Source of the DNA: Candidatus Woesearchaeota archaeon
Lineage (GTDB): Archaea; Nanobdellota; Nanobdellia; SCGC-AAA011-G17; JACPNG01
Direction: 5' to 3'
Length of the DNA: 26,202 nt
NCBI GenBank assembly: GCA_016185555.1
Contig: JACPNI010000066.1
Coordinates: forward strand, 1 to 26,202
In this document: positions 3 through 10,868 of the stretch, piece by piece
Layout of the letters: every line of letters begins with the position of its first letter
Numbering within the stretch: the first letter of the stretch is position 1
Translations under genes and position numbers: made by a program
Notes under the pieces: generated by a model
Told to the model about the DNA's origin: nothing
Databases searched by the model: none
Seen by the model: only the letters and a program-made list of their open reading frames with translations

Positions 3-791
3 GTTAAAAATCGCAATTTTATGGGAATGTGGCTCCATATCGAGCAACTACAAGCTTCATTGATAAGATCTATCTTTTCAAAAGTTAATGCTAACATAAC
101 AACTCCAGGTCCATTAAGCATGTATAAAAGAAAAGAACTTGTTGAAATTAACTGTTTCTCAACAGAAGGATTCTCAGAAGATGCAGATGTTGCAATAAGA
201 TTGATAAGAAAAGGGAATAAGGTTGTTTTTTCTAACAAATCAATAGTACACACTTACATGCCTGATGATTTCAAAGGAATAATAAGACAGCGTTCTAGGT
301 TTGCTCGTGGAACTATTAATATTTTAAAAAGGCACTTGAAGGCCAACAAGTTATTGATAGATTTGTACACGCTGCCATTGCTTTTATTTTTCTATATCCA
401 ATCAATAATAATGGGTTCTATCAACTTATACCAAATCTTTTCAGGATACTTCCTTTATTTCATTTCAAAAGGAATTTATATCGATTTAAATGTTTTGAAA
501 TTTTTCTTCGAGTGGTTATCATTGATTGGCTTCATAAAATGGTCTGGAAGCGTAATTCTCGGACTTGCTCCTTTAACTTTTTTAAGTGCAATAGTTATTC
601 TGACCTCATTACTCTCTTATCCTCGCTATGTTTACGCAATCCTAAAGTACGATAAAAGAATAGATTTACAACACATTATTCCTTTAACATTCATGTTCCC
701 TTTTTGGGTATTCGTAACTATAGTATACTTAATCTCAATCCCGGAAGTATTTAGCAAAACCCAATACAACAAGTGGAATAAGAATGAGTAA
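3..791 (+). CDS. Glycosyltransferase family 2 (cellulose synthase-like), C-terminal part; 5'-truncated by window edge
   Basis: Frame is open from base 3; ED and RQRSRFARG (QxxRW-like) motifs followed by several hydrophobic TM segments. Confidence 0.85.
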   Translation, partial: VKNRNFMGMWLHIEQLQASLIRSIFSKVNANITTPGPLSMYKRKELVEINCFSTEGFSEDADVAIRLIRKGNKVVFSNKSIVHTYMPDDFKGIIRQRSRFARGTINILKRHLKANKLLIDLYTLPLLLFFYIQSIIMGSINLYQIFSGYFLYFISKGIYIDLNVLKFFFEWLSLIGFIKWSGSVILGLAPLTFLSAIVILTSLLSYPRYVYAILKYDKRIDLQHIIPLTFMFPFWVFVTIVYLISIPEVFSKTQYNKWNKNE

Positions 792-961
792 TATTTAATT
801 ATCTAAAATAACAATGAAGCAAACAATAAGCTTAAGAAATGGCATAATTTCACAATATAAAATGGACAAGTTAAAATTTGATAATGTTTACGAGCGTGGA
901 AGAAATTTTTATACTTTGAATTACAGCAAATCTTTTATATCACAGTTATAGATCTATCCTT

Positions 962-1879
962 ATGGTAGAAGCTAAAGAACTAAGGGATAAGATACTTGCA
1001 TTCGCAACATTAAATGGTCCAATTCTTCCAGTACAGGCTTCAAAAAACGTAGGAACTAATATCCTGTTTGGCGCTGCTGTTCTTTCTGAGTTGGTTGCGG
1101 GGGGAAAAGTGTTTTTTACTAATATGAAAATTGGCGGCAGTCCTCTATATTATATTAAAGGGCAAGAACCGAAGCTGCAGTCTTTTATAAATCATTTAAG
1201 TGAAAAACCAAAAAAAGCATGTTTGGATTTACAAGAAAAAAAAATAATCAGGGATCATGAATGTGAAGCATGGGAAAGAGTAGCTTTAAGGGAAATAAAG
1301 GATTTTGCCTTTCCGATAAGTGTAAAGCATGATGATGGAACAATAGAGACATTCTGGAAGTGGTATTTGGTTAATGATGAAGAAGCAAAAAAAATTATTG
1401 AATCTTTAGTTGTTAAGAAAGAAGAAATAAATGTGGATACTGAAGAAACAGAAGATAAACCAAAGGAAGTTAAACAAGAAATAAGAGATGAAAAGCCACA
1501 ACCAGTTAAAGAGCCTATTAAAGATGAGAAGAAAGAGAGAAAGAAAAAACCGAAAAAAGCTACAAAAGATATTTCGAGTATGGCGTTTGAATATTTTGAA
1601 AAGAACAGCATTAGGGTAATAAGCAGCAGTGTAATTAAGAAAAATAAGGAAATAAACTATACTGTTGAAATACCATCTGAAATCGGCAGTTTATCTTACA
1701 TGGTTAAAATAAAAGACAAGGCAAAATTTACAGATTCTGATGTAATAATTGCTTACAGCGAAGCACAGTATGGCCGGCTTCCAATGCTTCTTTTAAGTAC
1801 AGGTGACCTGACTAAAAAAGCAGAAGAATACATAAATAAGAATTTAAAGGGCTATTTCCTGTTTAAGAAACTGGAATGA
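962..1879 (+). CDS. Conserved hypothetical protein (DPANN-type), two domains with charged linker
   Basis: 305-aa ORF, K/E-rich linker, stop overlaps next start (ATGA at 1876-1879). Confidence 0.7.
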   Translation: MVEAKELRDKILAFATLNGPILPVQASKNVGTNILFGAAVLSELVAGGKVFFTNMKIGGSPLYYIKGQEPKLQSFINHLSEKPKKACLDLQEKKIIRDHECEAWERVALREIKDFAFPISVKHDDGTIETFWKWYLVNDEEAKKIIESLVVKKEEINVDTEETEDKPKEVKQEIRDEKPQPVKEPIKDEKKERKKKPKKATKDISSMAFEYFEKNSIRVISSSVIKKNKEINYTVEIPSEIGSLSYMVKIKDKAKFTDSDVIIAYSEAQYGRLPMLLLSTGDLTKKAEEYINKNLKGYFLFKKLE

Positions 1880-2860
1880 AATATATTTTTGTGCTTGGCA
1901 GGGATCCGGAATTAAGCATACTTGAAATTGTATCTTATTTTAAGAGAAACAGTCTAAAGTATGAACTACTGGATTATTCGGATTACGCCTTGGTGCTTGA
2001 CACAGAAGAGCTTGATTTTGAAGAAATAATAAAACGACTGGGTGGAACGCTTAAGATCTGCAGGGTGATATCTGAAAAACTTCCAAATGCACTAAATATA
2101 GGATCTATAATAAACTCTGATAAGATACACTATGCAATTAGCTATTACGGTCAGCCAAGAATTGACCTGGCTAAGCTGAATATGCTGATAAAAAAAGAAT
2201 TAAAATCCATTGGTTATAAAAAAGCATATTACAAGCCCTCAAAAAGAGGAACATTCCTGATGCCCACTGAGACTATTAAGCTCTTAAAAGAAGGCGTTGA
2301 GTTTAATGTTTATTCAGTTGTTATTAGATCCTTTTTGCGGTCTTGGGTCTGTTATGCAGGAAGCTTTGTTGATGAATATTAATGCAATCGGCATTGATAA
2401 GGAAGATTATTCAGTCAATGCAACAATTTACAATCTTAAATGGTTTGAAAAGAATTTTAAGTTTAAGGCCAAATGGAAGGTTTATCATCAGGATTCTAGA
2501 TATTTAATAAATTTCTTGAGAGAAAAGCCGAATGTAGTTGCAACAGAGCCATATATGGGGGTGTTTTTTAAGAAACTTCCATCAAGCAGGCAGGCTATAA
2601 AAGTAATCAGGGAGGTTGAGCCGTTGTATTTTAGTGTACTAAGTCAGCTTAAATCCTTGGGCGTTAAGACTGTTGTTTTTATTGTTCCAAGATTTGTGAC
2701 TTCTGATAGAAAATTATTGAGGCTTGATTTTCCAAGAATACTTAAACGTACTGGATTTAATATTATAAGTCCGTTTGAAAAAATAAAAATGCCTGTGGTT
2801 TATAGAAAAAGAGAAGGTAATATTGAGAGAGAAATTTATATTCTAAATAATACCAAATAA
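1876..2860 (+). pseudogene. Trm11-like tRNA methyltransferase, split into two frames with an apparent internal deletion near 2310-2325
   Basis: ORF 1876..2382 has N-terminal MKYIFVLGRDPELS; ORF 2297..2860 has SAM motif LLDPFCGLG and TEPYMG; the RP...PRLA-type segment normally before LDPFCG is absent. Confidence 0.7.
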
Positions 2861-2896
2861 TTGCCGGAAATTTCAATTTATGAAACTTCATTAAAG

Positions 2897-3457
2897 CTAA
2901 AATTCAACTCCAGGAGCATTTTCAGTACCAGGTTTAGCATTAAAATAGGTTTTCTCCATAAACCCAAAGTTCTTTGCTATAATATTGCTCGGAAATGTTT
3001 TAATTTTGGCATTGTAATTTCTTACAACATCATTGTATCTTCCTCTTTCAACTGCAATCTTATTTTCTGTGTTACTCAGTTCATCCTGCAACGCAATAAA
3101 GTTTTGTGTTGCTTTTAATGCGGGATAATTCTCTGCAACTACCAACAGTTTTGAAAGTGTTGACTCTATCTGGTTTGCTGTTTGGACTTTCTCTTCTATA
3201 TTTGATGCGCTTTGCCACTGGCTTCTTAGTCTTGTTATTTCTTCCAAGGTAGAGGATTCAAATTTTGCAGCCCCCTTTACAGTAGAGACTAAATTAGGAA
3301 TTAAATCAACCCTTCTTTGGTATTGAGTCTCGACCTGTGCCCATTTATTATTCGTGTCTTCATTTAATTTAACTAAAGAGTTATATGTTGTCACATACCA
3401 AAATATAAGCAGTACAACCAGGCCAATTATGCTAAAAGTAACCCATTTATTCTTCAT
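2897..3457 (-). CDS. lemA: LemA family protein
   Basis: N-terminal TM, YQRRVDLIPNLV, VAENYPALKA, ENKIAVERGRYN motifs. Confidence 0.95.
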   Translation of the reverse strand: MKNKWVTFSIIGLVVLLIFWYVTTYNSLVKLNEDTNNKWAQVETQYQRRVDLIPNLVSTVKGAAKFESSTLEEITRLRSQWQSASNIEEKVQTANQIESTLSKLLVVAENYPALKATQNFIALQDELSNTENKIAVERGRYNDVVRNYNAKIKTFPSNIIAKNFGFMEKTYFNAKPGTENAPGVEF

Positions 3458-3636
3458 TTTCGTACCTTCCCTTTCTTTGAAAAACTATAGAGCAGTTTTA
3501 CTTCATCTTTATCTAGCCACATCCCTCCGCAGTTATCACAAACATCTAATACCGCCCCGGATGGATGATTAATTTTTCGCATAAGTCTTTTATTGAATAA
3601 ACTTGAGCATCTAGGGCATTTAATATATTTATCCAT
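3454..3636 (-). CDS. Small zinc-ribbon protein (zf-TFIIB-like), about 60 aa from ATG at 3636 (ORF track extends to 3675)
   Basis: CPRC...LDVCDNCGGMWLDKDE pattern; ATGA overlap with lemA. Confidence 0.8.
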   Translation of the reverse strand: MDKYIKCPRCSSLFNKRLMRKINHPSGAVLDVCDNCGGMWLDKDEVKLLYSFSKKGKVRK

Positions 3637-3668
3637 CAGTATTTTCTTTATTTTGTTTTTTTTAAAGT

Positions 3669-4451
3669 TTACCATCCTCCAGAACTTCCACCCCCACCAT
3701 ATCCTCCTCCGCCTCCTGAAAAACCACCAAGCCCGCCTGAGCCTCCAAAACCGCCCCTACCAAAGCCTCCTGCAAACAAGCCCCATGCAGCCCCATGATA
3801 AAAACTGTCATTATTATTCTTACTCTTAAGATTTTTTTTAGAATTTCTTATGATTGCAACAAAGCGCAATATTATAAAAATAGCAATTATCAAGAAAATT
3901 GCAGAATAAACTGTAGTTTGGCTTGTGTTCGTTTCATTTGAATTTTTTAATTTAACAATATCTGGATCGTTTGAACCTTGTAATATTTTGGTGCTTATAT
4001 CTACAACTTTAATTATTCCTTCTTCATAATTACCATTGATGAAATTTGGAACTAAATATTCCCTTGAGATCCTTCCAAGCAAAGGTGAATTGAGTGTACT
4101 TTCAACACCATAACCTACTTCCCACCTGTACTTCTTATCATCAATTGCAATATACAGAAGGATACCGTTATCATTACCTTTTTTCCCGATTTTATTTGAC
4201 TCCGCAATCTTTAATGTATACTCTTCTAGGGAAAGTTCTTTTGGATATTCTTTTTCTATATAAACAATATATTGAACGCCCCCGGTGGTCTTTTCTAAAT
4301 CTCTTAGTGTTTCTTCTAGAGATATTTTAGAAGATTCTGAAAGGATATTTGCATTATCCGTAACGTACGATCTTATTGCCGGTATCTTCGTGGCATTAAC
4401 CAAGGATATTACAAGAAAGAAAATCACTATGGAAAAAGTTAGTTTATGCAT
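3669..4451 (-). CDS. TPM-domain (YgcG-like) membrane protein
   Basis: Signal peptide, YVTDNANILS, IGKKGNDNGILL, EVGYGVE, TM and Gly-rich GGFSGGGGGYGGGGSSGGW tail; linked to lemA. Confidence 0.92.
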   Translation of the reverse strand: MHKLTFSIVIFFLVISLVNATKIPAIRSYVTDNANILSESSKISLEETLRDLEKTTGGVQYIVYIEKEYPKELSLEEYTLKIAESNKIGKKGNDNGILLYIAIDDKKYRWEVGYGVESTLNSPLLGRISREYLVPNFINGNYEEGIIKVVDISTKILQGSNDPDIVKLKNSNETNTSQTTVYSAIFLIIAIFIILRFVAIIRNSKKNLKSKNNNDSFYHGAAWGLFAGGFGRGGFGGSGGLGGFSGGGGGYGGGGSSGGW

Positions 4452-5865: not shown

Positions 5866-6214
5866 ATGACAGAAACTAACGAAGTGGAACATAAAGAAAG
5901 TCGGGAACGCAGCAACGTTGTGTACGTAGGATCCAAACCTTTTATGAAATTACAATAGTCAAGGCTATTGTAACATCAGTTACGTAACAAGCGTTGTTAT
6001 GCAGTTTACAGTGCAAAATTCAAATGAAGTTATAGTTAAAGCCAGGGGGAGATTTATCAGTCGTGCAGTTGACATAGTTGAAGTAGCCAGAAAAAGATTT
6101 TTGGATAATGCACTTGATCTCGGTGATATTAAACTAGATTCTGAAGATTTTAAAAATCGTGAAGGCAGAGATATCCGGGTTAGTACCATAGAGATAACTT
6201 TAAAAAAGAAATAG
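5866..6214 (+). CDS. alba: DNA/RNA-binding protein Alba, intron-containing: join(5866..5948,5980..6214), 105 aa
   Basis: Exon 1 MTETN...NVVYVGSKPFM; exon 2 YVTSVVMQF...VIVKARGRFISRAVDIVE...VSTIEITL; removing 31 nt rebuilds the codon AA|T (Asn) and the conserved G-x-KP-x-MNYV motif. Confidence 0.9.
5949..5979 (+). other. 31-nt BHB-type intron in the alba coding sequence
   Basis: TATG AA|A TTACAATAG TCAAGG CTATTGTAA CATC AG|T: two 3-nt bulges, 3 of 4 pairs in the central helix, perfect 9-bp stem; contains in-frame TAG at 5956..5958. Confidence 0.85.
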
Positions 6215-6241
6215 TCTTTTATTTTTAAAAAGAGGTAATAG

Positions 6242-7927
6242 ATGCAGGTCTCTATATTTTTTGACATTGTAATCATAATAATATTTGCAGCTTTACTAGC
6301 TAATATAGTAAGATTCTTTAAACAGCCATTAATTCTAGGCTATGTTATTGCAGGTCTGCTTATTGGTCCAAGTTTTTTTTCTTTTATAAAGAACCCGGAA
6401 TATTTGAGCACCTTTTCCGAAATAGGAATTGCTTTTCTTCTATTTATAGTGGGTATGGAGCTGGATTTCAAGAGACTTAAAGAGGTTAGTAATGTAGTTA
6501 TTATTGCAGGTATATTGCAGTCATTATTAACGATGGGTGTAGGGTTCTTTATCGCATCATTCTGGTTGGATATTACCCAGTCAATTTATCTTGGTTTAAT
6601 TGTTGCGTTTTCAAGTACAATGGTTGTCATTAAGCTTATATCAGACAAAGGCCAATTAGACACATTGCATGGAAGGATAGTATTAGGAATTTTGCTGGTC
6701 CAGGATGTAATAGCTGTTATAGCCTTGCCACTGCTTCCAACAATAAATAACTTCTCATACAGTTTGTTTTCAATAGCCTTGTTGAAAGGGATAGGGCTGA
6801 TTGTTTTTGCATTTTTAATGAGCAAATATGTTTTCTATTCTGTATTAAAAGCCACAGCTAAACTGCCAGAGCTTCTTTTTGTAACCGCACTTGCAATCTG
6901 CTTTATATTTGCTTCTTTTGCAGCCATTCTTGGATTTTCAATAGCAATAGGGGCTTTTGTAGCCGGTGTTGCATTAGCATCATTTCCATACAACCTGGAA
7001 ATAGTTGGGAGGATAAAATCACTTAAGGATTTCTTTATCATAATCTTTTTTGTTACCTTAGGAAGTCAGCTTAACTTAAATAATTTTAATTTCAATATAT
7101 ATTTAATAATAGCCTTAATAATAACTGTTTTGCTATTAAAGCCAGTTATTATCTTTGTTATACTGAAATTCTTTAAGTATGGCAATAATACATCGCTTCT
7201 ATCTGGCATGTACTTAGCACAGATTAGCGAGTTTTCTTTGGTAATTGCAGCATTAGGGCAGTCGCTTGGGCATATAACAAAAGAAACATTTACTTTGGTA
7301 ATATTAATCTCCGTATTTACAATTACATTAACTTCTTATTTTGGCCAATATGATAAAAAAATTTATCGGTTATTTTCTGACTTTCTGGTTCCGTTTGAAA
7401 GATATAGTTCAGAAGAGCTTAGAAGACTCCCAAAAGAAATATCAGCACATACGATTTTAATAGGGGCGCACAGGATGGGACTTAATATTATAAAAACCTT
7501 AAAGCAAAAAAATGAAAATTTTATAGTCGTTGATTTTAATCCGGAAGTTATTAGGAAATTAATTAAAATGAATATAAACTGCATATATGGAGATATAAGC
7601 AATATAGATGTTTTAATGCATCTTAACCTCAAAAAAGCTAGGATGGTTATATCAACTGTTCCAAATACACTCGATAATATGCTCTTAATTGAAATAATCC
7701 GGAAAGAGCATAAGGACTGTATTGTAATAGTAAGGTCCTCTTCTGCATTTGAAGCATTAAACCTTTATAAAAAAGGGGCGGATTTTGTAGTTCTGCCTGA
7801 ATTATTGGCTGGGCAAAAGATTTCGGATTATTTAACCCATCTAAATGACAGGGAAATAAAAAAATGGGGTAAAACCTATAAAGACAACCTAGCTAAATCC
7901 ATGAACTATGAAGATGGTATCTGGTAG
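6242..7927 (+). CDS. Kef-type cation:proton antiporter (CPA2) with TrkA-N domain
   Basis: GYVIAGLLIGP, LLFIVGMELD, FSSTMVVIK, LLVQD, GAFVAG; C-terminal Rossmann IGAHRMG, VVDFNPE, IYGD. Confidence 0.93.
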   Translation: MQVSIFFDIVIIIIFAALLANIVRFFKQPLILGYVIAGLLIGPSFFSFIKNPEYLSTFSEIGIAFLLFIVGMELDFKRLKEVSNVVIIAGILQSLLTMGVGFFIASFWLDITQSIYLGLIVAFSSTMVVIKLISDKGQLDTLHGRIVLGILLVQDVIAVIALPLLPTINNFSYSLFSIALLKGIGLIVFAFLMSKYVFYSVLKATAKLPELLFVTALAICFIFASFAAILGFSIAIGAFVAGVALASFPYNLEIVGRIKSLKDFFIIIFFVTLGSQLNLNNFNFNIYLIIALIITVLLLKPVIIFVILKFFKYGNNTSLLSGMYLAQISEFSLVIAALGQSLGHITKETFTLVILISVFTITLTSYFGQYDKKIYRLFSDFLVPFERYSSEELRRLPKEISAHTILIGAHRMGLNIIKTLKQKNENFIVVDFNPEVIRKLIKMNINCIYGDISNIDVLMHLNLKKARMVISTVPNTLDNMLLIEIIRKEHKDCIVIVRSSSAFEALNLYKKGADFVVLPELLAGQKISDYLTHLNDREIKKWGKTYKDNLAKSMNYEDGIW

Positions 7928-7929
7928 TC

Positions 7930-8271
7930 TTAGCCTATATAGCTTGTAGGTGTTTTTTCCTGTATGTTCGGTGCTATTTTTTTCTTCTTTTCAAATTTAG
8001 GTTCTTCCAGTTTTCCGAATTTATCCTCATAAAGCTTTAAATTTTCTTCAAGTATTTTAATAAGTATCTTTAGAAAATCCTTGTCGATCATTACTAAGCT
8101 ATGTTTTATTGGCACTACAGCAGCTCCGCCTTCACTATATCTTGTTAGCACTTGCCTGAATTCTAAAAAGAAATTGTTCTTGCTATGGGATACTGCTAAA
8201 CCATTTGCATAGAATGCATCCTTGCTAAAGTCTAATTGGCCTTGAATTTCTGTTCTTTCTTCTTTTTCCAT
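7930..8271 (-). CDS. Hypothetical protein, DUF3467-like
   Basis: FYANGLAVSHSKNNFFLEFRQ resembles the DUF3467 pattern. Confidence 0.6.
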   Translation of the reverse strand: MEKEERTEIQGQLDFSKDAFYANGLAVSHSKNNFFLEFRQVLTRYSEGGAAVVPIKHSLVMIDKDFLKILIKILEENLKLYEDKFGKLEEPKFEKKKKIAPNIQEKTPTSYIG

Positions 8272-8286
8272 TTTTACCTCCCATTA

Positions 8287-8360
8287 TGCCTCTGCTGGGA
8301 TTTGAACCCAGGACATCTGGATTATGAAACCAGCGCTCTACCGGGCTAAGCTACAGAGGC
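8287..8360 (-). tRNA. tRNA-Met(CAT), probably elongator; no intron, CCA not encoded
   Basis: GCCTCTG/CAGAGGC acceptor, CTGGT-TTCATAA-TCCAG anticodon arm with U31.U39, GGTTCAAATCC T arm; lacks initiator A1-U72. Confidence 0.9.
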
Positions 8361-8383
8361 ATTAGAATTTGGTTTGAAACTAG

Positions 8384-8773
8384 TTATAAAAAGCTTTTTA
8401 TTTTATCAGCAATAGCAACAAATTCTTCTTTTGTTGGTTCAGGTATCTTTTCAAAGCTTAGATGTTTTTCATAACAGGGATGCAGTCTTACATGTACATG
8501 ATCCACCATAAATCCTTCAACTACTATGCAAGTCCTGATTGGTTTAAAGGAATTATCAATTGCTTTGGCTATTTTTCTGGATCTAAGAAATAGTTCTGAG
8601 TATTCTTTATCATTAAGGTCAAAGATATAACTGGAGTGCTTTTTTAGTACAACTAACACCTGGCCTTTGGATGATGGAAAGGCATCTAGAAATGCTAAAT
8701 GTTCTTCATCCTCATAAATTTTATATGAAGGTATATTATTATTGATTATTTTGCAGAATACACAGTCATTCAT
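8384..8773 (-). CDS. HIT family hydrolase
   Basis: DCVFCKII, AFLDAFP, GQVLVV, variant triad VDHVHVRL. Confidence 0.9.
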   Translation of the reverse strand: MNDCVFCKIINNNIPSYKIYEDEEHLAFLDAFPSSKGQVLVVLKKHSSYIFDLNDKEYSELFLRSRKIAKAIDNSFKPIRTCIVVEGFMVDHVHVRLHPCYEKHLSFEKIPEPTKEEFVAIADKIKSFL

Positions 8774-9689
8774 TTTTTCTTTCCTCTTTCTTAACAGAAT
8801 TCCAGATTTTTAATGCATCTTCAGGAGTTTCGGCTTTTTTATCGCCAAAAACATGGGGATGCCTTCTTATAATTTTTGCGTAGACTTCACTTAATGAGTC
8901 TTCAATACCAAACAATCCTTCATCCTTTGCTATTCCTGCTATTACCAGTATATTAATCAGCATATCACCCAATTCTTCTTTAAGGTTTGCATAGTCTTTT
9001 TTCGCTATGGCTTCAAGAACTTCTTTTGATTCATCTGCAAACGATTTTGCAATTGTTTCTATAGTCTGGCTTCTATCCCAAGGGCATTTTTTTCTCACTA
9101 CCCCAACGATTTCTTTTAAGTCATCAAAACCTGCTTTTGAGATATAATATTCTGCAAATTTCTTAAATGCTTTTGATCTATGTGAAATTTTGTTTTTTTC
9201 TTCCCTGCTTAGTTTTGATAATGTAACATCATATCCATTTGGGATAAATATCCTTTCATAGGGCATAACATCTTTATCTAAGTCGAAAACTTCATTGCTG
9301 ATGCTTCCCCCAAGAATTCCATCAAATAATAGTGGGCCTTTTTCATGATTGCAGTATCCTACAATAGTCTTAAAATAAGCACCCTTATTTTCATCCTTTA
9401 ACAGTTTTAGGATTCCCCTATAGCCCAGTTTTTTAAATTCCATTTTTGGGTAAGGCCTAGGATAATTGTTATAGGATTCGAAGAATATTCCCGTGTCTTC
9501 AATTACTAGTTCTAATCTTAGATCGTTTGATAATTTGGTAATTGATTCTTTTACGACTTCTTCAACAGTATCTGCTCGTGCTTCATTATACCTTATATTA
9601 AGATGTTCAACTCCAATATTATACTCTTTAAGAATAGCAGATGCTTCTTCTACTTTATGCTTGTTTGATGTTGCAAATATTATTTTCAT
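8766..9689 (-). CDS. Fusion of RdgB/HAM1 non-canonical NTP pyrophosphatase and MazG nucleotide pyrophosphohydrolase
   Basis: N-half FATSNKHK, EDTG, KNKISHR; C-half CPWDRSQT, EELGD, KIIRRHPHVFG. Confidence 0.9.
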   Translation of the reverse strand: MKIIFATSNKHKVEEASAILKEYNIGVEHLNIRYNEARADTVEEVVKESITKLSNDLRLELVIEDTGIFFESYNNYPRPYPKMEFKKLGYRGILKLLKDENKGAYFKTIVGYCNHEKGPLLFDGILGGSISNEVFDLDKDVMPYERIFIPNGYDVTLSKLSREEKNKISHRSKAFKKFAEYYISKAGFDDLKEIVGVVRKKCPWDRSQTIETIAKSFADESKEVLEAIAKKDYANLKEELGDMLINILVIAGIAKDEGLFGIEDSLSEVYAKIIRRHPHVFGDKKAETPEDALKIWNSVKKEERKNE

Positions 9690-9711
9690 CTTTTAAGTGG
9701 ACTCGCCGCGA

Positions 9712-9724
9712 TTTTCTTCAAGGA
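9712..9724 (-). other. 13-nt T-loop intron (59/60) of tRNA-Ala(CGC)
   Basis: TTCA AA|T CCTTGA AGAA AA|T; removal restores TTCAAAT loop; 3 of 4 central pairs. Confidence 0.75.
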
Positions 9725-9764
9725 TTTGAACGCGGTGCCTTTCCCGTGCGAGGGGAATGCTCTA

Positions 9765-9786
9765 TTTTCCATATCTTTTGGATATT
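9765..9786 (-). other. 22-nt D-loop intron of tRNA-Ala(CGC)
   Basis: GTCT GG|A ATATC CAAAA GATAT GGAA AA|T; removal gives D loop AGTCTGGTA. Confidence 0.8.
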
Positions 9787-9847
9787 CCAGACTGAGCTAC
9801 GAGCCCAACAAGTTTTAATCAGAATCGCTCTATAAAAGCTTTTTGAA

Positions 9848-10690
9848 TTATACCTTAAGATTTAACTTTTTCCAATAAACATAACCAAGAACAACTGATA
9901 ATAAAGTAGAAATAACTAAAGATTCTAATAAGAATCTATTATGACCTTTAAAATAGGCATCTGATAAAGCAGGAATCCCAAATATTGCACCAACAGTCCC
10001 CGGGATGGTTACCACGATACTAACAATTGTTAAGAAAGTCATAATTATTGTCAGCTTTGTAATCCTGGCATTTAGTTCTGAGTTACTTTTAATATCGCAT
10101 TTTGTTCTTAGGCTTGCTATCCTATACATATTGCTTCTGCATCTTTCAAGCCAATATTTCGCTTCAGTCGTTAATATGTTATAATCATAATTTATCAATT
10201 TGCTATCAAACTCTGCTAACTTCCTCTCCTCAAGCTTTATTAAAATATCTACAAAATCCTCTATTCTGTCTATTAATTTTCTTAATCTTCTTCCTTCATT
10301 CTCTATCCTATCTATGTTTAAATTTTGCTCTAATTCAGTTAATTCCTTTCTTATACTTTCAAATTCCGATGTGTAATTTGTAAGAACCGCCTCTAAGATT
10401 AGAAATGTTATTGCTGTGCTTTCACCATGTTTTTTATTTAATATGTTGCTAAATTGTCTTAAATTTCCATTGATTACGTCCTTTCCAACATAAACTAAGG
10501 CTTTCTTAGGCGAGAGAACTATGAGGTTATTAGGCTCTTTGTCATAGTCCCTAATGTTAATAATTGTAAATACATCATAGGTCTGCAGAAAATTATAGTC
10601 AAGAAGTGTTAGCTCTTTAAGATTTATCTTTAACCCGGAATCTTTAACTTCCCTGTTAAAGTCATTAAAGTTTGTGAATATTTTATACAT
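9848..10690 (-). CDS. CorA-like divalent cation transporter
   Basis: Helical soluble domain, then ITKLTIIMTFLTIVSIVVTIPGTVGAIFGI and a second TM; GMN motif not canonical. Confidence 0.7.
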   Translation of the reverse strand: MYKIFTNFNDFNREVKDSGLKINLKELTLLDYNFLQTYDVFTIINIRDYDKEPNNLIVLSPKKALVYVGKDVINGNLRQFSNILNKKHGESTAITFLILEAVLTNYTSEFESIRKELTELEQNLNIDRIENEGRRLRKLIDRIEDFVDILIKLEERKLAEFDSKLINYDYNILTTEAKYWLERCRSNMYRIASLRTKCDIKSNSELNARITKLTIIMTFLTIVSIVVTIPGTVGAIFGIPALSDAYFKGHNRFLLESLVISTLLSVVLGYVYWKKLNLKV

Positions 10691-10777
10691 CTATAAGGAA
10701 GAGAATGTGAACTTACTTATATATTTTTATATGAATTAATATGGACTCGGTGGGATTCGAACCCACGGCCTTCCGCA

Positions 10778-10790
10778 TTACGGTTTTTAT
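10778..10790 (-). other. 13-nt canonical-position (37/38) intron of tRNA-Ala(GGC)
   Basis: TCGG CA|A TAAAAA CCGT AA|T; 3 of 4 central pairs. Confidence 0.8.
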
Positions 10791-10808
10791 TGCCGAGCGG
10801 ACGCTCTA

Positions 10809-10824
10809 TTGTCCAAGCTATTTT
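10809..10824 (-). other. 16-nt D-loop intron of tRNA-Ala(GGC)
   Basis: GTCC AG|A AAATAGCTT GGAC AA|T; perfect 4-bp central helix; same site as in tRNA-Ala(CGC). Confidence 0.8.
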
Positions 10825-10868
10825 CTGGACTGAGCTACGAGCCCATTACATTTTCCATTTCAAAAAAC

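What the first reader, a model, noticed from the sequence alone, without database searches (positions are those of the whole stretch)
5949..10824. Five short introns (one mRNA, four tRNA) share one splice-site grammar
Junctions read from the sequence: alba AA|A...AG|T; Ala-CGC T loop AA|T...AA|T; Ala-CGC D loop GG|A...AA|T; Ala-GGC 37/38 CA|A...AA|T; Ala-GGC D loop AG|A...AA|T. All are 13-31 nt, all end A-purine followed by exon U, and four of five have only 3 of 4 central pairs. The tRNA introns are an internal control showing that relaxed helices must be processed in this cell. Inference: a broad-specificity endonuclease lets small introns spread from tRNA into mRNA, so more genes elsewhere in the genome may be hidden as apparent pseudogenes or short in-frame insertions.
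Basis: partly seen in the sequence, partly recalled or inferred. Interest (0 to 1): 0.8.

Follow-up and report, generated by a model that had tools for sequence, protein, structure and literature searches.

The report
tRNA-type introns in alba and tRNAs
The five short inserts are real, ordinary-shaped archaeal tRNA-type introns. The one that splits the protein-coding alba gene recurs in about 20 related Woesearchaeota genomes, which makes alba a rare second case, after cbf5, of an archaeal protein gene that must be spliced. The proposed A-purine|U splice code and a hidden crowd of further split genes in this genome are not supported.

Summary
Removing them restores a full Alba domain and two tRNA-Ala cloverleaves. 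The shared "grammar" is the known bulge-helix-bulge / bulge-helix-loop (BHB/BHL) geometry cut by the archaeal splicing endonuclease.

A hand census of this 59%-complete Woesearchaeota MAG found 18 tRNA introns plus alba. The first base of the 3' bulge is A in 19/19. The second is a purine in 14/19. The exon base is U in only 8/19, so AR|U is largely a coincidence of this window. Alba introns in relatives end CG, TG, AT, TA or TT.

The alba intron is well supported by comparison. There are 23 introns in up to 22 genomes, at three sites within 5 nt. The inner helix covaries, the central helix shows a compensatory change, and one genome carries two introns around a 4-nt micro-exon.

Relatives encode one plain alpha4-type EndA with no extra loops. 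EndA was not found in this assembly; RtcB is present.

Two genome-wide scans found no further mRNA intron here: motif hits equal background, and a homology scan finds only alba.

No RNA data exist. No alba intron was found in the held literature. This scan has already reported it in at least 6 other genomes.

The parts
5866..5948 (+). alba exon 1 (27 codons plus AA of the Asn codon). It is preceded by a GGAGGGTG Shine-Dalgarno-like site and a TTTATAAA TATA-like box.
5949..5979 (+). alba mRNA intron, 31 nt. Central helix: Ha TATG (5943-5946) pairs with Hb CATC (5974-5977), 3/4. 5' bulge AA|A. Flush 9-bp inner hairpin at 5950-5973. 3' bulge AG|U. It contains an in-frame TAG at 5956.
5980..6214 (+). 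alba exon 2 (T of the Asn codon, then YVTSVVMQF... to the stop)
9698..9806 (-). tRNA-Ala(CGC) gene with two introns and a G3:U70 pair. A TATA-like box lies about 30 nt upstream.
9765..9786 (-). D-loop intron, 22 nt. GG|A...AA|U. Central helix GTCT/GGAA 3/4. 5-bp inner hairpin.
9712..9724 (-). T-loop intron at 59/60, 13 nt, BHL type (no inner helix). AA|U...AA|U. Central helix TTCA/AGAA 3/4.
10742..10844 (-). tRNA-Ala(GGC) gene with two introns. The mature form has the unusual C33 and A18.
10809..10824 (-). D-loop intron, 16 nt. AG|A...AA|U. Central helix GTCC/GGAC 4/4.
10778..10790 (-). Anticodon-loop intron at 37/38, 13 nt, BHL type. CA|A...AA|U. Central helix TCGG/CCGT 3/4.

Best explanation
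The five inserts are archaeal splicing-endonuclease introns of the bulge-helix-bulge (BHB) or relaxed bulge-helix-loop (BHL) kind.

In each one, a 4-nt exon stretch pairs with the 4 nt that lie before the last two intron bases. This places both cut sites after the second base of 3-nt bulges, or of a loop, on opposite strands. EndA would cut there, and RtcB would join the exons.

For alba this joins AA and U into an Asn codon and turns a 30-codon stub plus a headless 71-aa ORF into a 105-aa Alba protein.

The shared 'grammar' is this known geometry plus a lineage-wide adenine at the first 3'-bulge position. The endonuclease holds that base by stacking. The exon U is incidental.

What is shown: the anatomy, the restoration of function, conservation and covariation. 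What is inferred: the cutting and joining in RNA, and which enzyme does it.
For: Restoration of function:
- Splicing restores a full Alba domain and two tRNA-Ala genes.
- Thirteen intron-bearing tRNAs of this genome are all called by ARAGORN once 18 introns of the same geometry are removed.

The alba insert in relatives:
- It is present in 9 of 36 relatives, in 7 of 39 further species representatives including the complete genome GW2011_AR20, and in 5 more genomes of a class-wide sample, one from another order.
- Every one restores KPFMNY.

Structure conservation:
- Inner-helix pairs 0-4, flush with the bulges, are paired in 16, 15, 17, 15 and 17 of 17 introns, with four pair types each. Shifted registers give about 50%.
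- The central helix shows a compensatory change: CTTT/GAAG becomes CGTT/GACG in G199 and G169.
- Genome G133 carries both positional variants, separated by the micro-exon TGAA. Removing both restores the ORF.

Enzymes and expression:
- RtcB is present in this genome. EndA is present in 38 of 40 relatives.
- Published structures show the first bulged base, an adenine, held by pi-cation stacking (PMC12397907).
- The intron-containing DNA is confirmed in four runs.
Against: - No RNA data exist: no RNA run was listed.
- EndA was not found in this 59%-complete assembly.
- The lowest-energy fold of the alba region draws a 2x2 internal loop rather than two staggered bulges.
- The outer helix next to the alba central helix is weak, and some class-A relatives have only 1-2 of 4 central pairs.
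- The relatives' EndA looks like the alpha4 type, which is described as strict for canonical BHB (PMC5829648). Yet many of these introns are relaxed.
- tRNA junctions were assigned by hand, and some can slide by 1-2 nt.
Confidence: 0.85

Rival explanations
1. One reading: a special broad-specificity endonuclease recognises an N4-NN|N...N4-AR|U code and has let introns spread from tRNAs into many mRNAs, so further genes of this genome are hidden as apparent pseudogenes.
For: Relaxed helices are common: 10 of 19 are 3/4. The first 3'-bulge position is A in 19/19. Earlier notes of this scan, not checked here, report BHB introns in EF-2 of other DPANN genomes.
Against: - Exon U is 8/19 genome-wide and 3/14 outside this window.
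- Alba introns of relatives end CG, TG, AT, TA or TT.
- The motif-times-ORF scan gives 1376 hits against 1373 expected. A looser scan gives 31883 against 30873.
- The homology scan against relative G012 (735 ORFs) recovers alba as the only clean intron. The reverse scan (768 ORFs) finds none in G012.
- EF-2 of this genome is interrupted by an intein, not an RNA intron.
- The relatives' EndA has no insertion relative to the M. jannaschii enzyme.
- The resemblance between the alba intron and a tRNA-Arg intron is a 6-mer plus 3 nt, about what chance gives.
Confidence: 0.1
2. The alba gene is a pseudogene, or carries a sequencing or assembly error. The hairpin insert is junk and no full-length Alba is made.
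For: The gene is out of frame as it stands, with a TAG at 5956. The same genome holds other broken genes: tandem duplications on C6 and C13, and a 76-nt deletion on C60.
Against: - Four DNA runs show identical sequence.
- It is the only alba found in this assembly.
- About 22 genomes carry inserts of 21-34 nt within 5 nt of one another. All restore KPFMNY, both exons are conserved, and the helices covary.
Confidence: 0.03
3. The ribosome skips the 31 nt by translational bypassing or programmed frameshifting, as in phage T4 gene 60, rather than the RNA being spliced.
For: There is a stop codon soon after the take-off region and a stable hairpin inside the gap.
Against: - There are no matched take-off and landing codons.
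- The gap occupies three different positions and varies from 21 to 34 nt.
- What is conserved is BHB geometry, meaning a 4-bp helix between staggered bulges with compensatory changes.
- The same genome uses that geometry in 18 tRNA introns.
Confidence: 0.02

Closest known systems
cbf5 pre-mRNA intron of Crenarchaeota (Watanabe 2002; Yoshinari 2006; Yokobori 2009, PMC2738675)
   Same: It is a short BHB-type, often relaxed, intron inside a protein-coding gene for an RNA-associated protein. Its distribution across relatives is patchy, with gains and losses. It is thought to be cut by the tRNA splicing endonuclease. The same hypothesis was raised there: relaxed endonuclease specificity allowed the birth of an mRNA intron.
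   Different: The gene is alba and the lineage is DPANN (Woesearchaeales plus one genome of another order). There are three insertion sites within 5 nt, and one genome has twin introns. The accompanying EndA is a single alpha4-like subunit rather than the hetero-oligomer to which mRNA splicing was linked. There is no experimental proof here.
Multi-intron, non-canonical-position tRNA genes of Thermoproteales, ARMAN and other DPANN (Kaneta 2018, PMC5829648)
   Same: Two introns per tRNA. Positions in the D loop, at 59/60, 30/31, 35/36 and 37/38. BHL forms of 10-14 nt. Standard tRNA finders miss them.
   Different: Nothing essential differs. This is another genome of a lineage already noted for disrupted tRNAs. 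The 19/19 adenine at the first 3'-bulge position is a local regularity.
Methanocaldococcus jannaschii alpha4 EndA (PDB 1A79)
   Same: The relatives' EndA is about 171 aa with N- and C-terminal domains. It aligns over residues 17-171 without a gap, and the catalytic-loop motifs are conserved.
   Different: The alpha4 enzymes are described as strict for canonical BHB, whereas the substrates here are largely relaxed. Oligomeric state and specificity are untested, and the gene was not found in this assembly.
Ordered removal of adjacent or nested introns in multiple-intron pre-tRNAs (from my own knowledge: Tocchini-Valentini and colleagues, 2009; not read here)
   Same: In G133 the two alba introns lie 4 nt apart. 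The second central helix is 4/4 only after the first intron is removed, and 3/4 before.
   Different: Here it occurs in an mRNA, with a 4-nt micro-exon.

Membership tests
Archaeal BHB/BHL (splicing-endonuclease) intron | Two 3-nt bulges (or a bulge and a loop) on opposite strands, separated by a 4-bp helix, with cuts after the second bulge base | tested here: met
   All five fit, with 3/4 or 4/4 central pairs. For alba, the minimum-energy fold prefers a slightly different register, so the motif is relaxed rather than canonical.
Archaeal BHB/BHL (splicing-endonuclease) intron | Removal at those sites yields a functional product | tested here: met
   A full Alba domain. tRNA-Ala(CGC) and tRNA-Ala(GGC) are called by ARAGORN. 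An intron-less ortholog matches.
Archaeal BHB/BHL (splicing-endonuclease) intron | The structure, not the sequence, is conserved among homologous introns (covariation) | tested here: met
   For alba, 17 introns have inner pairs 0-4 paired in 88-100% with four pair types, against about 50% in shifted controls. There is a compensatory change in the central helix. The four tRNA introns were not tested this way.
Archaeal BHB/BHL (splicing-endonuclease) intron | EndA and an RtcB-type ligase are encoded by the organism | tested here: inconclusive
   RtcB was found. EndA was not found in this 59%-complete assembly, but is present in 38 of 40 relatives.
Archaeal BHB/BHL (splicing-endonuclease) intron | A spliced junction and a released (circular) intron are seen in RNA | not testable with these tools
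   No RNA run was listed for this sequence.
alpha4-type EndA (relatives' enzyme) | A single gene of about 170-180 aa with one N-terminal and one catalytic C-terminal domain, and no second subunit gene | tested here: met
   One PF01974 hit per genome in 37 of the 38 relatives that have a match. The other, G031, has a second, contig-end fragment. PF02778 plus PF01974 in 171 aa.
alpha4-type EndA (relatives' enzyme) | No specificity-broadening insert (CSL or ASL type) next to the catalytic His | tested here: met
   Gap-free alignment to 1A79. N. equitans alpha has a 6-aa insert there that these proteins lack. There are no indels between alba-intron-plus and alba-intron-minus genomes. The 'L3' loop of PMC5829648 could not be located from the text, so it was not assessed.
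alpha4-type EndA (relatives' enzyme) | Homotetramer formation and substrate range | not testable with these tools
   This needs biochemistry.

The most novel reading that the evidence does not exclude
alba is a second archaeal protein-coding gene family that depends on tRNA-type splicing, and the first in DPANN. The introns sit at three sites within 5 nt and share a homologous hairpin. One genome has both main variants around a 4-nt micro-exon. The accompanying enzyme is a plain single-subunit alpha4 EndA without the loops thought necessary for relaxed or non-tRNA substrates. If so, mRNA splicing by EndA does not need a hetero-oligomeric or loop-bearing enzyme. Production of a major nucleic-acid-binding protein would be coupled to the tRNA-splicing machinery, whose gene lies within 10 kb of alba in 21 of 36 relatives.
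Probability: 0.6. Interest if true: 0.7.

Novelty: new member of a known kind. Interest (0 to 1): 0.55.

Why it matters
In print, splicing of archaeal protein-coding messages rests essentially on one gene, cbf5, and was tied to hetero-oligomeric endonucleases. A second, well-conserved case changes that picture. It sits in a different superphylum and comes with a minimal alpha4-type enzyme. That would widen the known substrate range of EndA and give a clean system for studying gain, loss and apparent sliding or duplication of such introns.

It is also a warning for annotation. The alba gene, the two tRNA-Ala genes here, and 11 further tRNAs of this genome are mis-called or missed by standard tools.

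The narrower claim of a shared AR|U code would not change much. It reduces to the known geometry plus a preference for adenine.

Tried and rejected
1. Motif-times-ORF scans of the whole genome for BHB-like inserts that join open frames gave 31883 hits against 30873 expected. The strict version, which also requires a 3'-bulge A, gave 1376 against 1373. The motif is too weak in a 33% GC genome, so the result carries no information beyond 'no excess'.

2. The homology scan for split genes against the near-complete relative G012 turned up an N gap on C6, a 14-nt tandem duplication in a CDC48-like gene on C6, and a 38-nt tandem duplication on C13. The reverse scan flagged a 76-nt deletion in a geranylgeranyl-reductase-like gene on C60. 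None of these is an intron. Blind spots: introns shared by both genomes, very short exons, and short in-frame inserts.

3. EF-2 was followed as a lead from earlier scan notes. In this genome the P-loop is interrupted by an in-frame intein with LAGLIDADG motifs, not by an RNA intron.

4. RNA evidence: none was listed. DNA runs only confirm the genomic form.

5. EndA in the own assembly was not found, by family or by a relative's protein.

6. The alba intron shares TAGTCA..GGC with the tRNA-Arg(TCG) D-loop intron. A 6-mer match is expected about once by chance, so this was not used as evidence of transfer.

7. Automatic choice of tRNA junctions by ARAGORN acceptance was too permissive. Junctions were curated by hand.

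8. Marck & Grosjean 2003 is not held.
Full report
**What is there**

The window is contig C79 of an 801-kb, 136-contig assembly that is 59% complete and about 33% GC. Record titles of its closest alba relatives name Candidatus Woesearchaeota / Nanoarchaeota MAGs.

The alba reading frame starts at ATG 5866, behind a Shine-Dalgarno-like site and a TATA-like box. It runs into TAG 5956. The rest of the gene lies in another frame. Deleting 5949-5979 (31 nt) joins AA and T into an Asn codon and gives ...KPFMNYVTSVVMQF.... The Pfam Alba match grows from profile positions 24-65 (38.6 bits) to 1-64 (60.5 bits).

Two minus-strand tRNA-Ala genes are invisible to ARAGORN and to Rfam at gathering score. 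They become clean cloverleaves with G3:U70 when two inserts each are removed. Insert coordinates are 9765-9786 and 9712-9724 for Ala(CGC), and 10809-10824 and 10778-10790 for Ala(GGC). An intron-less tRNA-Ala(CGC) in relative G002 is identical to the spliced form over its first 27 nt, which fixes the D-loop junction. Contigs from four groundwater DNA runs cover all these places without differences and without an intron-less joint.

**What the 'grammar' is**

Four exon bases pair with the four intron bases that precede the last two. That leaves 3-nt bulges with the cut after the second base.

I extended the census to the whole assembly. Rfam hits longer than a tRNA, and partial hits, were parsed by hand. 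Thirteen tRNA genes carry 18 introns of 10-28 nt, and all thirteen are called by ARAGORN after removal. Positions are 37/38, the D loop or arm, 59/60 (three tRNAs), 30/31 (two), 35/36 and 28/29.

Counting alba as well:
- The central helix has 3/4 pairs in 10 introns and 4/4 in 9.
- The first base of the 3' bulge is A in 19/19, against an intron A content of 0.44.
- The second base is A 12, U 4, G 2, C 1.
- The exon base is U 8, A 6, G 4, C 1.

Outside this window only 1 of 14 introns reads AR|U. The exon U in the five cases comes from tRNA positions 20 (both Ala genes), 38 and 60, and from the AAT codon. The adenine has a ready explanation. In solved endonuclease-RNA complexes the first bulged base, an adenine, is held by pi-cation stacking (PMC12397907). 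The intron-side bulge is free to evolve toward it. The 'grammar' is therefore known geometry plus a preferred adenine.

**The alba intron in relatives**

Of 36 related genomes with an alba match, 27 have an uninterrupted ...KPFMNYVTGVVMQF and 9 are interrupted at this place. A pattern scan of species representatives gave 7 more among 39 loci, including the complete genome GW2011_AR20. A class-wide sample added G199, G184, G204, G133 and, from another order, G169.

The inserts are 21-34 nt and occupy three sites:
- after ATGAA, as here (class A);
- 4 nt upstream, after TTTA (class B);
- once, 1 nt downstream (L062).

All restore KPFMNY.

In 17 introns the inner hairpin sits flush against the bulges. 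Its first five pairs are formed in 16, 15, 17, 15 and 17 of 17 introns, with four different pair types each. Registers shifted by 1-2 nt pair in about half. Class B has 4/4 central pairs in all cases. Where the proline codon changes CTTT to CGTT (G199, G169), the intron partner changes GAAG to GACG.

Most hairpins of both classes share an AGU...GCU apex. This window and G204, from another family, share TAGTCAAGGCTA. The classes therefore look homologous.

G133 carries both classes: 32 nt and 30 nt around the micro-exon TGAA. Removing both gives an intact Alba. This argues for twin sites with differential loss, or a duplication, rather than simple sliding.

The 3' bulges in relatives read AG, AA, CG, UG, AU, UA and UU before the exon U. 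AR is therefore not required.

**Machinery**

RtcB is present in this assembly. EndA was not found here, either by family or with a relative's protein, which means little at 59% completeness.

In 38 of 40 relatives there is one EndA gene. It encodes about 171 aa with the N-terminal and catalytic domains. It aligns to M. jannaschii alpha4 EndA over residues 17-171 without a gap, and it lacks the insert that N. equitans alpha carries next to the catalytic His. Eleven relatives' EndA sequences show no indel that separates alba-intron carriers from non-carriers.

The literature holds that alpha4 enzymes are strict, and that relaxed introns go with (alpha-beta)2 or epsilon2 enzymes or with added loops (PMC5829648). 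The cbf5 papers tied mRNA splicing to hetero-oligomeric enzymes (PMC2738675). The substrates here are largely relaxed, so either this alpha4-like enzyme has a wider range or something else helps. I could not test this.

**Are more genes hidden?**

Two scans addressed this.
- *Motif and open frames.* The count of BHB-like inserts that join open frames equals the product of the marginals: 31883 against 30873 at loose settings, and 1376 against 1373 at strict settings.
- *Homology.* I laid the near-complete relative G012 in the box. I then looked for collinear protein matches broken by 9-120 extra bases.

The homology scan recovered alba as a positive control. Otherwise it found only an N gap and two tandem duplications. 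The reverse direction found only a 76-nt deletion in this genome's geranylgeranyl-reductase-like gene.

Earlier notes of this scan report BHB introns in EF-2 of other DPANN. Here EF-2 is interrupted at the P-loop by an in-frame intein (GK|C...HN|TT, with LAGLIDADG motifs), not by an RNA intron.

Within the limits stated under Tried and rejected, alba is the only mRNA intron detected.

**Known or new**

The held literature reports coding-region BHB introns only for cbf5, plus a Haloferax 5'-UTR case. Searches combining alba, DPANN, Woesearchaeota, BHB and intron found no report of an alba intron.

This scan has already described the alba intron on at least six other genomes. This is a repeat sighting on new DNA. 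The additions are the genome-wide junction census, the twin-intron genome, the compensatory change in the central helix, the EndA typing and the negative scans.

**Verdict**

- The kind is known.
- The alba case is a new member of that kind.
- Confidence that the five inserts are endonuclease-spliced introns is 0.85.

Noticed in passing
G000:C114, about 2733-4230 (minus strand): The EF-2 gene of this genome is interrupted at the P-loop (AHIDHGK|C...HN|TTFSDN) by an in-frame intein of about 490 aa with LAGLIDADG-type motifs. Many relatives have EF-2 open frames of about 890-1230 aa, which suggests inteins there too.
   Followed up: partly
L145 (G133:C20:13313-13873, minus strand): The alba gene of relative G133 carries two BHB introns (32 and 30 nt) separated by a 4-nt micro-exon TGAA. 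Removing both restores the ORF.
   Followed up: yes
relatives G001-G040: The EndA gene lies on the same contig within about 1-10 kb of alba in 21 of 36 relatives. In this window no EndA lies within 20 kb of alba.
   Followed up: partly
G000:C6:6597-6624: A perfect 14-nt tandem duplication (TCTGTTGTAAGAGA, two copies) shifts the frame of a CDC48-like AAA ATPase gene. It could be a real mutation or an assembly artefact.
   Followed up: partly
G000:C13, within 452-2073 (minus strand): An imperfect tandem duplication of about 38 nt breaks a conserved gene relative to G012.
   Followed up: no
G000:C60 (minus strand; offset about 2225 on the reverse-complemented contig): A geranylgeranyl-reductase-like FAD oxidoreductase gene lacks about 76 nt that are present in G012 and is out of frame. 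It is a likely pseudogene or a misassembly.
   Followed up: partly
window 10742-10844 (minus strand): Spliced tRNA-Ala(GGC) has C33 and A18. The intron-less tRNA-Ala(GGC) of relative G020 has U33 and G18. This gene may be decaying or may tolerate the changes.
   Followed up: partly
window 5909-5928 with 5981-6001: The minimum-energy fold of 5900-6005 pairs exon 1 with exon 2 around the intron (z-score -2.9). This could serve as the missing outer helix. A 7-bp exon-exon pairing also appears in the G133 fold.
   Followed up: partly
G000:C56:2768-3580 and G000:C57:8-760: Two contig-end fragments both cover the same C-terminal part of RtcB (profile positions 163-426 and 177-426). This suggests two copies or two strains in the bin.
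   Followed up: no
window 1876-2860 (plus strand): Two overlapping ORFs in different frames. The second matches only the C-terminal end of DNA or RNA methyltransferase profiles, so this may be a frameshifted or split methyltransferase gene.
   Followed up: no
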